Positions 6,779 through 55,114 of a DNA stretch of 64,000 nt are shown in pieces. How positions within the stretch are numbered: the stretch's first letter is position 1; each line of letters begins with the position of its first letter. The notes under the pieces were generated by a model that had not been told where the DNA came from, did no database searches, and saw nothing but the letters and a program-made list of their open reading frames with translations. A program made the translations under genes and the position numbers. Source of the DNA: Raja brachyura (Eukaryota); NCBI GenBank assembly GCA_963514005.1, contig OY740811.1:26474001-26538000 (forward strand). The letters run 5' to 3'.

Positions 6779-7399
6779 AAGTAGAGTGAAATGTGCAGCA
6801 GTTTTCTTGTTCACAGATAGTACAGCTCTGGTCTATGGAGTTCAGGTGGACCCTAAGATCTCCACAAAACCAAACCTTGACCCCTTCAGCCTTGCTGCCT
6901 TTAAATGCCATTCGCTCATTAAGCGAACTGCATGTTCTATGGGTTTTTATTTGTAATAATTCCTTTCGCCACAATACCTTACTCCTATGATGATAACATG
7001 AGCACATCTTTGGGCTCGGAATCCACTCAGGAAATCCAATTAACAATATAATTGTTAATTGGATTTCCTGAGAGGATTCCAAGACCAAAGATGGTCTGTG
7101 CAAATACCTAAACCTAAGTGGAACTGCTGCTTATCATGAGGTTTTTTTTTTAAGAGATGCTTTTATAATGACTCCAGGTCTGTGGGATCCCCCACTGATT
7201 GTGTCCTTGCTAGTACTGGTCCTATATATAGAGATCAAGGGAGATTTGCAGCCCACAACATATGTAGCAACATGGAAAGTTAATTGTACAGTTTTATCTG
7301 TATAATCATGGTTACATCAACATGCATGGATATCGCTTTTTTAGCAATGTAAAATGATAAAATATGCTTTAGAAAAGCATATACCAAATACCAAAACAA

Positions 7400-22698: not shown

Positions 22699-23676
22699 AA
22701 AGTCTATAGCAACTGCTGTGCAAATAGATTATGCTCCTTCGTTTTACTTTGGGTTAAATATATTGCACTGATATATCAGAGCAATTTGTTGAGTTCACAG
22801 CTTGCGGACGGGTTGGGGACAGCTGCTATCTTTCTGTTTGAGCTTTTGGCTGCTTGCATTTCTTGTGTAACGGGTTCCAATAAAGTAGGGAAAACAAGCT
22901 TCTTATTGGTTTTGTGATTTAAAAAAAAATTGCAACAGTGCTGATCCAAAAGGTTGACTGCCATATCTAATTCCGATGAGTCTTTGTAATGAAGCCAAGG
23001 AGTTAATGCGGACAAGACAGTGCAGTGACCACGTTTTGCCACCCGGCAAGTTTCATCAACAGGAATAGATGAAGCATTCATGAATATATTAGTGTCAACT
23101 AGTGCCGGACCATCTATGATACCCAACCTGATCGATAAAGAAACAGGCGGTGTACCAAATGGAATGGAACTCTCCTGTCGTTGCCAATTAGAATGCCAAA
23201 CGCTCAATGGATACGTGACTTGCATGGCCCTGCCAGAAGGGTTTTACATTGTGCTAACATAATTAAATGGCAATGTGAGGCTTTCACTGTAATAATATTT
23301 CCAAAATCCAACTCGACTGGTGTAATTAAAAAGCTTAGTAATTTCAACAGGAATATTTGGGGATCCCTATCCTATTGCATTGGGCTGAAGTTGCAAGTGA
23401 AGGATGTTTGCGGACGGGAAGTGAAGGATTCAACATTACAGAATACTTCCTTTAGAAAAATATTTTTGCTTTCTCAAATACCTTTCTAATCTCATTCCAT
23501 TTACAGCTACAACTCTAGCATCTCCCCGACAGAGGAAAATTGTTCAGGCATTCACAAGGCTGAATAAATCGAATCCAGCCAATCAATACAGCATTAGGCT
23601 AACATGATAAAGTTGGTCATCAACAGAGCTCTCAAGGCACAGCGAGTGTGGGCCAGCAGTAACTTGCCAATCTTTC

Positions 23677-23825
23677 TTCTTCTTCTTCTTCTTCTGGCGT
23701 ATGGCGTGCACAGCCTAAAGTTGTTGGACAACCTGTTCTATTTCATCTTATTTGATTGTGCACGCCGGGTTGATTGCATTTATCGAAACAGGGCGGACCA
23801 CGTGAAGGTTGCAATCTCCCACCCC
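23677..23825 (-). mobile_element. ~150-bp non-autonomous retroposon (Vingi/Ingi-like tail) with HDV-like ribozyme head, copy 1
   Basis: 11-bp TSD GCCAATCTTTC (23666-23676 and 23826-23836); 3' end GCCATACGCC(AGA)n; near-identical second copy at 54975-55114. Confidence 0.85.
23772..23825 (-). ncRNA. Minimal HDV-like (CPEB3-type) ribozyme fold; catalytic C lost in this copy
   Basis: GGGGUGG(P1) GA GAUUGCA(P2) ACC(P3) UUCACGU(L3) GGU(P3') CCGCCCU(P1') GU UUCGA UAAA(J4/2) UGCAAUC(P2'). Confidence 0.8.
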
Positions 23826-24437
23826 GCCAATCTTTCCACCCAGAAGAACAAGTAAAGCAAGCACATGGAACACCACCATCTGTAGATTCCACTCCTATTT
23901 GCATGTCATCATGACTTGGGAATATAGCCAACTCTTTCATTAAAGAAGGTCTAAGTACTGGTTCCAGCATGACAAGCATAACATTGCTACGCTAATTGCA
24001 GAAGTTCAAGCTGGCAGATCATGATTGCCTCCTTTTAGGCTTATGAGGAACAACATTTAACACAGTTGGCGATGAGGATTAGACTTGCACTGCAAATTAT
24101 GTCTGGGCAAATCCAACTGGAAAGTGTATGAGAGCGAAACAAATTTTATTGGTGGGACTGAAAAGTGGATCGAGCTGGAAGACTTTTGTGCAGACCCCGC
24201 AAGGACTCGATGGATCTAAATGGCCTCCTTCTATCCTGTGACCTGTAGGGAATCAATGCTTGCTTTGCCCGTGGCACTTAAGCCCTATAAATGAAAACAA
24301 AATATCTGGGAATTCTATCCTCTCAGCACCATGAGAGAATCTTCATCAACTAGACTGCAATGGTTCAAGCAGACATCTCAAGGACATTGAGGGATCTATC
24401 AATCCAACAAAGAGCCATTAAAAAAATTACAACACAG

Positions 24438-54974: not shown

Positions 54975-55114
54975 CTTCCTCTTCTTGCGTGCGGCGTGCA
55001 CAGCCTAAAGTTGCAGGACAACTTGTTCTATTTCATCTTATTTAAGTGTGCACGCCAGGTTGATTGCATTCGTTGAAACAGGGCGGACCACGTGGAGGTT
55101 GCAATCTCCCACCC
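54975..55114 (-). mobile_element. ~150-bp non-autonomous retroposon with HDV-like ribozyme head, copy 2
   Basis: TSD ATACACCTGGGT / GTATACCTGGGT (54963-54974 and 55115-55126); tail GCCGCACGCAAGAAGAGGAAGA; collinear with copy 1. Confidence 0.85.

What the first reader, a model, noticed from the sequence alone, without database searches (positions are those of the whole stretch)
23772..23825. Ribozyme-headed SINE: the first 54 nt fold as a minimal HDV/CPEB3-like double pseudoknot
Seen: the minus strand begins exactly at the TSD boundary and parses as P1 GGGGUGG/CCGCCCU (7 bp with the hallmark G1-U wobble), J1/2 GA, P2 GAUUGCA/UGCAAUC (7 bp), P3 ACC/GGU, L3 UUCACGU, GU, a stub UUCGA in place of P4, and J4/2 UAAA (CGAA in copy 2). 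Established: this is the HDV-family topology; L3 UUCACGU, the GU after P1 and J4/2 CGAA match the mammalian CPEB3 ribozyme; HDV-like ribozymes cleave 5' of G1 and define the 5' ends of R2, RTE and Ingi/L1Tc retrotransposons. Inference: this is a SINE-sized element with no tRNA, 5S or 7SL head that cuts itself out of read-through host transcripts, making a unit-length RNA without a Pol III promoter. I do not know of such a family described from elasmobranchs.
Basis: partly seen in the sequence, partly recalled or inferred. Interest (0 to 1): 0.92.

Follow-up and report, generated by a model that had tools for sequence, protein, structure and literature searches.

The report
Ribozyme-capped miniature of a LINE retrotransposon
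This is one copy of a very abundant 130-base jumping element made from the two ends of a longer LINE retrotransposon; its first 54 bases have the shape of an unusually small self-cutting RNA inherited from that parent, though this copy has lost the catalytic base.

Summary
The HDV-like parse is real (window 23825-23772, minus strand, flush with an 11-bp TSD) and not chance. It is not an independent SINE head. The parent is in the same genome: a ~3.1-kb single-ORF APE-RT LINE without RNase H (Vingi-like). Its first 77 nt and last ~40 nt are the two ends of this element. The element is therefore a short internally deleted element (SIDE), the same kind as NARTc, RIME and R2 SIDEs, with at least 17,500 copies. 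The fold holds up: the J4/2 C is the family consensus (72 of 76, 50 of 52), a second LINE family here and two metagenome relatives keep the same 17 pairs with 6-8 two-sided changes each, and 37 of 52 TSDs end within 1 nt of G1. Against it: this copy has C-to-T at the catalytic site, copy 2 lacks G1, Rfam scores are below threshold, and cleavage is untested. The new part is a P4-less minimal HDV-like head on an animal retrotransposon, intact in hundreds to thousands of copies. Side lead: the published Vingi-2_Gav 5' end nearly matches the CPEB3 ribozyme.

The parts
23826..23836 (-). 5' target-site duplication GAAAGATTGGC, flush with G1
23772..23825 (-). HDV-like ribozyme head, element nt 1-54, no P4; same head as the parent LINE's 5' end
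23819..23825 (-). P1 5' strand; G1 at 23825 is the predicted cleavage site
23810..23816 (-). P2 5' strand
23797..23809 (-). P3 with the 7-nt L3 loop UUCACGU
23790..23796 (-). P1 3' strand
23783..23789 (-). J1/4 GU plus 5-nt stub UUCGA in place of P4
23779..23782 (-). J4/2, TAAA in this copy; 23782 is the catalytic-C position, here T (family consensus C)
23772..23778 (-). P2 3' strand
23749..23771 (-). rest of the LINE 5' UTR piece (element nt 55-77)
23727..23748 (-). 22-nt junction special to the dominant short family; no long match in the LINE, holds two 7-nt inverted pieces of the LINE 3' end
23698..23726 (-). LINE 3' end (last codons, stop, 3' UTR; element nt 100-128); presumed RT recognition site
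23677..23697 (-). (AAG)n tail shared with the parent LINE
23666..23676 (-). 3' target-site duplication
54975..55114 (-). second copy in the window: J4/2 CGAA kept, G1 position is C, L3 UCCACGU

Best explanation
The element is a non-autonomous, internally deleted derivative (SIDE) of a Vingi-like LINE. It kept the two cis signals of the parent: the 5' HDV-like ribozyme with a short stretch of 5' UTR, and the 3' end with its (AAG)n tail. Proposed cycle: (1) a master copy is transcribed inside a longer Pol II RNA [inferred]; (2) nt 1-54 fold into a P4-less double pseudoknot and cut just 5' of G1, using the J4/2 C and Mg2+ [fold shown by sequence comparison, chemistry inferred from the HDV family]; (3) the parent's APE-RT protein binds the shared 3' end in trans and inserts the RNA by target-primed reverse transcription [shared ends, tails and 8-14-nt TSDs shown; trans use inferred]; (4) copies then decay neutrally, and the flagged copy is a dead one [shown]. 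The derivation from the LINE is near certain (~0.97); activity of the consensus head is less so (~0.75).
For: Parent: 3 of 70 loci picked on the 3' motif alone continue upstream into an ORF end. Long copies L073, L080 and L081 carry element nt ~2-9 to 75-77 directly 5' of the ORF (L079 only nt 39-77), and L079, L080 and L074-L076 end in element nt 100-142. Pfam finds endonuclease, RT and a weak zinc knuckle, no RNase H. All 14 of 14 loci with the LINE-type 5' UTR join to the 3' tail through several different junctions, one being interrupted by another repeat. Fold: against the short element's 17 pairs, family 2 (L086) shows 6 two-sided changes and 0 broken, L149 8 and 0, L152 7 and 1. Each lies at a LINE 5' end just before the ORF. 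L152 scores 40.8 bits, E 1.3e-6, on Rfam HDV-F-prausnitzii. Catalytic C: 72 of 76 after dropping a 24-match duplicated cluster from the first 100 of 13,821 matches (counted by hand); 50 of 52. The common family variants fall at J1/2 nt 8, the second J4/2 base, the stub, and a U-G/U-A swap in P1. 52 of 70 copies start within 4 nt of G1; 37 of 52 TSDs end within 1 nt of it. Precedent: R2 SIDE and NARTco ribozymes cleave in vitro; P4-less HDV-like ribozymes are active.
Against: No cleavage data. Rfam scores for the head are far below threshold, and a pooled scan of 13 short loci gave 0 hits at E<=10. P1.1 is a single C-G pair and P4 is absent, so cleavage may be slow. The nested MFE of the 128-nt RNA pairs nt 2-5 with nt 56-59 in place of P1, a competing fold, though ViennaRNA cannot score the pseudoknot. 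A uniform 5' end is also what an internal promoter, or simply a 130-nt template, would give. The descriptor hit 3 of 36 LINE loci scanned, none of them a long family-1 copy (their heads are clipped or mutated), and 2 of the 5 metagenome loci that reach the N-terminus. The comparison heads were parsed with a descriptor that demands pairing, so the covariation count leans toward the model. Some well-folded SIDER heads were inactive in vitro. The Vingi label rests on architecture and recall, not on a tree.
Confidence: 0.75

Rival explanations
1. Same SIDE origin, but the 5' end is set by an internal Pol II promoter in the first ~77 nt (as Pr77 of L1Tc/NARTc). The P4-less pseudoknot is slow or inactive and serves as a 5' shield or RT-binding fold.
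For: The LINE-shared 5' part is 77 nt, longer than the 54-nt fold. The first 77 nt of L1Tc/NARTc act as a promoter as well as a ribozyme. P4 is lost and P1.1 is minimal. A competing fold exists.
Against: The catalytic C and the CNRA junction are kept in both short-element subfamilies, in family 2 (17 of 21 with C-N-R-A) and in L149 and L152. The 5' boundary is G1 itself. The two roles are not exclusive.
Confidence: 0.17
2. The dominant family became a true Pol III SINE: it uses the TTCGA stub as a B-box and spread because its new junction removed the T-run of the LINE 5' UTR.
For: The dominant element has no TTTT in nt 1-128, while 11 of 14 minor derivatives have one. 17,504 junction matches (<=1 mismatch) against 126 exact LINE-type junctions (stricter search).
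Against: By eye the stub matches only 5 of 7 positions of the recalled B-box consensus and there is no good A-box. The same stub is in the protein-coding parent. ARAGORN finds no tRNA in the window.
Confidence: 0.05
3. One reading: an independent SINE whose head is a captured ribozyme unrelated to the LINE that moves it.
For: SINE size, TSDs, no tRNA head.
Against: Nt 8-77 are 91-93% identical to the 5' end of the LINE that also supplies the tail.
Confidence: 0.02
4. The pseudoknot parse is chance.
For: Rfam below threshold.
Against: Shuffle control; two-sided changes in three other lineages.
Confidence: 0.01

Closest known systems
NARTc / RIME / NARTco (non-autonomous L1Tc/ingi derivatives, trypanosomes)
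   Same: 5' ~77 nt of the LINE with an HDV-like ribozyme that cuts at +1, a short 3' end of the LINE, dispersed copies (passages of PMC3383444, PMC4035085).
   Different: Here 128 nt plus tail against 263 nt for NARTc; no P4; (AAG)n tail; parent lacks RNase H; animal host; over 17,500 copies.
R2 SIDEs and R2/R1 SIDEs (Drosophila)
   Same: 5' HDV-like ribozyme plus LINE 3' end, unrelated middle, named SIDE because not Pol III. The R2 core in that paper's primers (ACC-TCCTCGT-GGT) parallels ACC-TTCACGT-GGT here (PMC3414825 passages).
   Different: R2 SIDEs sit only in 28S rDNA, at low copy number, with full P4 and long J1/2.
Vingi LINEs and their internally deleted derivatives (Vingi-1_EE derivatives, Vingi-2_Gav)
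   Same: Single-ORF APE-RT without RNase H, ~3.1 kb (Vingi-2_Gav 3128 nt), many internal-deletion derivatives. The Vingi-2_Gav 5' end in the Kojima 2018 supplement has the same L3, GU and CGAA (by eye).
   Different: Vingi is not among the six clades listed as ribozyme-bearing in Kojima 2018. Vingi-2_Gav keeps P4. Clade membership of this LINE was not tested with labelled sequences.
Minimal HDV-like (drz-Mtgn, theta) ribozymes
   Same: No P4, short J1/2, catalytic C first in J4/2 (PMC10879173).
   Different: Reported almost only from gut phages (about 99%), beside tRNAs; that search of human, mouse and protist genomes reported no eukaryotic hit. Here it heads an animal retrotransposon.
Mammalian CPEB3 ribozyme (Rfam RF00622)
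   Same: L3 UUCACGU, J1/4 GU, J4/2 CGAA, 2-nt J1/2.
   Different: Different P1, P2 and P3 sequence, has P4, single-copy intronic; 11.8 bits against gathering score 35.

Membership tests
HDV-like ribozymes | Nested double pseudoknot order P1-P2-P3-L3-P3'-P1'-J1/4-(P4)-J4/2-P2' | tested here: met
   two-sided changes in three other lineages
HDV-like ribozymes | 7-bp P1 starting at G1 (G-U or G-C) | tested here: met
   window copy 1 and family majority; not met in window copy 2
HDV-like ribozymes | Catalytic C first in J4/2 (family level) | tested here: met
   72 of 76, 50 of 52
HDV-like ribozymes | Catalytic C in the flagged copy itself | tested here: not met
   T at 23782
HDV-like ribozymes | P1.1 between L3 and J1/4 | tested here: inconclusive
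   one C-G pair possible, as in the CPEB3 consensus; not probed
HDV-like ribozymes | Mg2+-dependent self-cleavage 5' of G1 | not testable with these tools
   needs an in vitro assay
Rfam HDV_ribozyme / CPEB3 / HDV-F-prausnitzii | Score at or above the gathering threshold | tested here: not met
   20.0/50, 11.8/35, 14.4/44
SIDE (bipartite non-autonomous LINE) | 5' end identical by descent to the LINE's 5' end | tested here: met
   91-93% over nt 8-77
SIDE (bipartite non-autonomous LINE) | 3' end and tail shared with the same LINE; no ORF | tested here: met
SIDE (bipartite non-autonomous LINE) | Amplified as a unit with TSDs | tested here: met
   17,504 junction matches; TSD candidates of 8-14 nt in 50 of 52
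SINE proper (Pol III, small-RNA head) | tRNA, 5S, 7SL or snRNA-derived head with internal Pol III promoter | tested here: not met
   no tRNA; no Rfam small-RNA hit at this site; head is LINE-derived. Polymerase itself not tested.
Vingi clade (parent LINE) | Single ORF, APE + RT, no RNase H, ~3.1 kb | tested here: met
   definition; shared with RTE, so not diagnostic alone
Vingi clade (parent LINE) | RT tree groups it with Vingi rather than RTE or Ingi | not tested
   no labelled Vingi proteins were available from the tools; protein motifs look Vingi-like from recall only

The most novel reading that the evidence does not exclude
A P4-less minimal HDV-like ribozyme, a form reported almost only from gut phages, heads a Vingi-type LINE and its miniature in an animal genome and is still active. 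At least 364 exact copies, and on the order of 3,000 structurally intact ones (9 of 52 scaled to 17,500), would then be self-cutting sites in host transcripts. Vingi-clade 5' ends would be a general source of vertebrate HDV-like ribozymes, the mammalian CPEB3 ribozyme included.
Probability: 0.4. Interest if true: 0.72.

Novelty: new variant of a known kind. Interest (0 to 1): 0.5.

Why it matters
It extends ribozyme-headed SIDEs from rDNA-bound R2 and trypanosome elements to a dispersed family of tens of thousands of copies in a 2.7-Gb animal genome. It supplies a 54-nt natural HDV-like ribozyme candidate with a large natural variant library, and shows the minimal cis parts (5' 77 nt, 3' 40 nt) that a Vingi-type RT needs, which matters to Vingi-based gene writers. 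It makes two questions testable: whether intact copies are avoided in the sense strand of introns, and whether the CPEB3 ribozyme is a domesticated Vingi 5' end.

Tried and rejected
Rfam at window scale and on 13 pooled short loci: no ribozyme hit; on the family-2 head L089: no HDV family among 3 weak hits. Looking for selection on pairs among inserted copies: paired head positions diverge 4.2%, unpaired 4.3%, body 5.9%, so no signal. Source of the 22-nt junction: only 7-9-nt matches in three LINE copies. Sequencing runs: no RNA holder listed on record; the four runs laid were contigs and cannot show RNA ends, strand or level, so they are not used for or against expression. Earlier findings of this scan: three look-ups, nothing. 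PDB has no close relative of the LINE protein; best hit LINE-1 ORF2p. The ESM Atlas gave no clade name. Ruminski 2011 and Kojima 2011 could not be read, and Riccitelli 2014 was seen only as cited; any of these, or Repbase/Dfam entries I cannot search, may already hold this family or a Vingi ribozyme. Host gene context and strand of the window copies were not examined.

Full report
Observation. On the minus strand the element runs from G1 at 23825 to an (AAG)n tail ending at 23677, between two copies of an 11-bp TSD. A descriptor I wrote (7-bp P1 from G, 6-8-bp P2, 3-bp P3, L3 and J4/2 patterns recalled from published HDV descriptors) finds only this site in the window when the catalytic C is not required, against 1 hit in 150 shuffles of 64 kb. 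With the C required it finds nothing in the window or the shuffles. The flagged copy has T at that position (23782). The second copy has the C but lacks G1.

The family. Exact genome-wide counts, each with a reversed-pattern control of 0: 2,643 for a 22-nt 3' motif, 13,821 for a 16-base head motif, 17,504 for the element-specific junction with up to one mismatch, 364 for the whole 54-nt head of L004. I fetched the first 70 of the 100 listed 3'-motif matches (all on contig C1), chosen without regard to the head. 52 start within 4 nt of G1, 15 are truncated, interrupted or rearranged, and 3 are LINE 3' ends. Of the 52, 50 have a TSD candidate of 8-14 nt (some weak), 37 ending within 1 nt of G1. 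9 meet the strict descriptor and 12 a relaxed one. Non-CpG divergence averages 5.1%, CpG 16%. The J4/2 C is present in 50 of 52 and in 72 of 76 of the first 100 head matches after removing 24 from one duplicated cluster (CTAA 35, CGAA 28, CAAA 6, CCAA 2, CTCA 1, TGAA 3, TTAA 1; hand count). Contigs from four runs coded as four organisms also carry the family, with loose ends at G1; these say nothing on expression.

The parent. L046 and L048 share the 3' motif but run upstream into an ORF end. Longer copies encode a zinc-knuckle C-terminus. Its best database relative, P0001 (1019 aa, 59% identical), located near-full-length copies. L080 spans about 3.1 kb from head to tail. L073, L080 and L081 begin with element nt 2-9 to 75-77 and run on through a short UTR into the endonuclease domain; L079 keeps nt 39-77. 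L074-L076, L079 and L080 end in element nt 100-142. Pfam gives endonuclease, RT and a weak zf-RVT, no RNase H. That fits the Vingi definition in a review and the 3128-nt length of Vingi-2_Gav. RTE shares the layout, so the Vingi name also leans on recalled motifs. Of 126 exact matches to the LINE-type 5' UTR I fetched the first 14. All are short elements joined to the 3' tail through at least three different junctions, one interrupted by another repeat and two being neighbours. The LINE throws off miniatures repeatedly, and the window's family is the one that amplified most.

Is the fold real? A second, more distant LINE family here (L086, L089-L108: 21 of the 40 listed matches) starts at its own G1. 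Against the short element's 17 pairs it has 10 the same, 1 one-sided and 6 two-sided changes, none broken, the same P3 and GU, a 40-nt P4 region and J4/2 CAGA in 15 of 21. Two metagenome relatives, L149 and L152, carry descriptor-matching heads just 5' of their ORFs, with 8 and 7 two-sided changes. L152 scores 40.8 bits on an Rfam HDV family. Limits: 3 of 36 LINE loci scanned hit; of five metagenome loci reaching the N-terminus two hit, two show a P1-like pair by eye and one nothing; the parses were made by a descriptor that demands pairing. The head itself draws only HDV-family Rfam hits, all below threshold.

Mechanism. Shown: LINE-derived ends, TSDs, a 5' boundary at G1, a conserved HDV core. 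From established knowledge: HDV-like ribozymes cut 5' of G1 with the J4/2 C, and C-to-U kills them; P4 can be absent; R2 SIDE and NARTco heads cleave in vitro. Inferred: master copies are released from longer Pol II RNA by self-cleavage and copied in trans by the LINE's protein. Open: rate of cleavage with one P1.1 pair and no P4; a competing pairing of nt 2-5 with nt 56-59, which could be an attenuator like the one reported downstream of L1TcRz; an internal promoter in nt 1-77.

What is known. Kojima 2018 (passages; supplement passages) states that RTE, Ingi, Vingi and R2 produce bipartite non-autonomous LINEs and discusses the link to 5' ribozymes. Eickbush 2012 (passages) names them SIDEs. 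Sanchez-Luque 2012 and 2014 (passages) cover NARTc, RIME and SIDERs. Kienbeck 2024 (passages and one section) places minimal ribozymes almost wholly in phages. Also seen as passages: PMC13708176, PMC6326823, PMC10919898, PMC5753468, PMC3391268. Seven library searches listed no paper on this family, on a Vingi ribozyme, or on a P4-less head in an animal retrotransposon. Only listings were seen for most hits, subscription papers and repeat databases are outside the library, and three key papers were not read.

The CPEB3 likeness. The short element shares only the core with CPEB3. But the Vingi-2_Gav 5' end printed matches the Rfam CPEB3 consensus printed at 36 of 38 positions from P1 to J1/4 and 12 of 12 at J4/2-P2' (by eye). 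No listed paper holds CPEB3, ribozyme and Vingi together. It is a lead from two printed sequences, not a result from this window.

Verdict. A real feature, correctly seen, of a known kind (ribozyme-headed SIDE), with a new variant trait (no P4, animal host, very high copy number). The flagged copy is itself most likely dead. Interest 0.5.

Noticed in passing
(outside the window): The Vingi-2_Gav 5' end, and SINE2-1_AMi derived from it, nearly match the mammalian CPEB3 ribozyme consensus (36 of 38 plus 12 of 12 by eye for Vingi-2_Gav). CPEB3's ribozyme may be a domesticated Vingi 5' end.
   Followed up: partly
L086:358-447 and L089-L108: A second LINE family with its own HDV-like head (long P4 region, J4/2 CAGA), at least 40 matches; L096, L099, L104 and L105 look internally deleted as well.
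   Followed up: partly
L062, L071, L084, L147: The head lies inverted and joined to an internal or 3' piece of the LINE, as twin priming would give; in three of the four the inverted piece reaches the A-rich stretch after nt ~68.
   Followed up: no
L041, L129: The ~30 nt between the two P2 arms are inverted in place, bounded by the P2 inverted repeat.
   Followed up: no
window 34625 (-), 37389, 46031, 48051, 58519, 62393 (+): A different abundant repeat (families D1-D9) has a hammerhead-like core, CUGAnGA-stem-GAAAC, in six copies; motif recalled, Rfam gave no hammerhead hit. Possibly Penelope-type LTR pieces.
   Followed up: no
element nt 60-68 and 115-123 (window ~23766-23758 and 23711-23703): A 9-bp inverted repeat pairs the LINE's 5' UTR piece with its 3' UTR piece, so the two ends of the parent RNA may pair too (MFE).
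   Followed up: no
52 full copies: The base before G1 is T in 31 of 52 and usually belongs to the TSD: a target-site preference that also sets the ribozyme's -1 base.
   Followed up: no
window 7008-7090: Long near-perfect hairpin with sub-threshold miRNA-family matches; probably an inverted repeat.
   Followed up: no
G000:C1 14.79-14.95 Mb: 24 heads in alternating orientation within a tandemly duplicated block.
   Followed up: no
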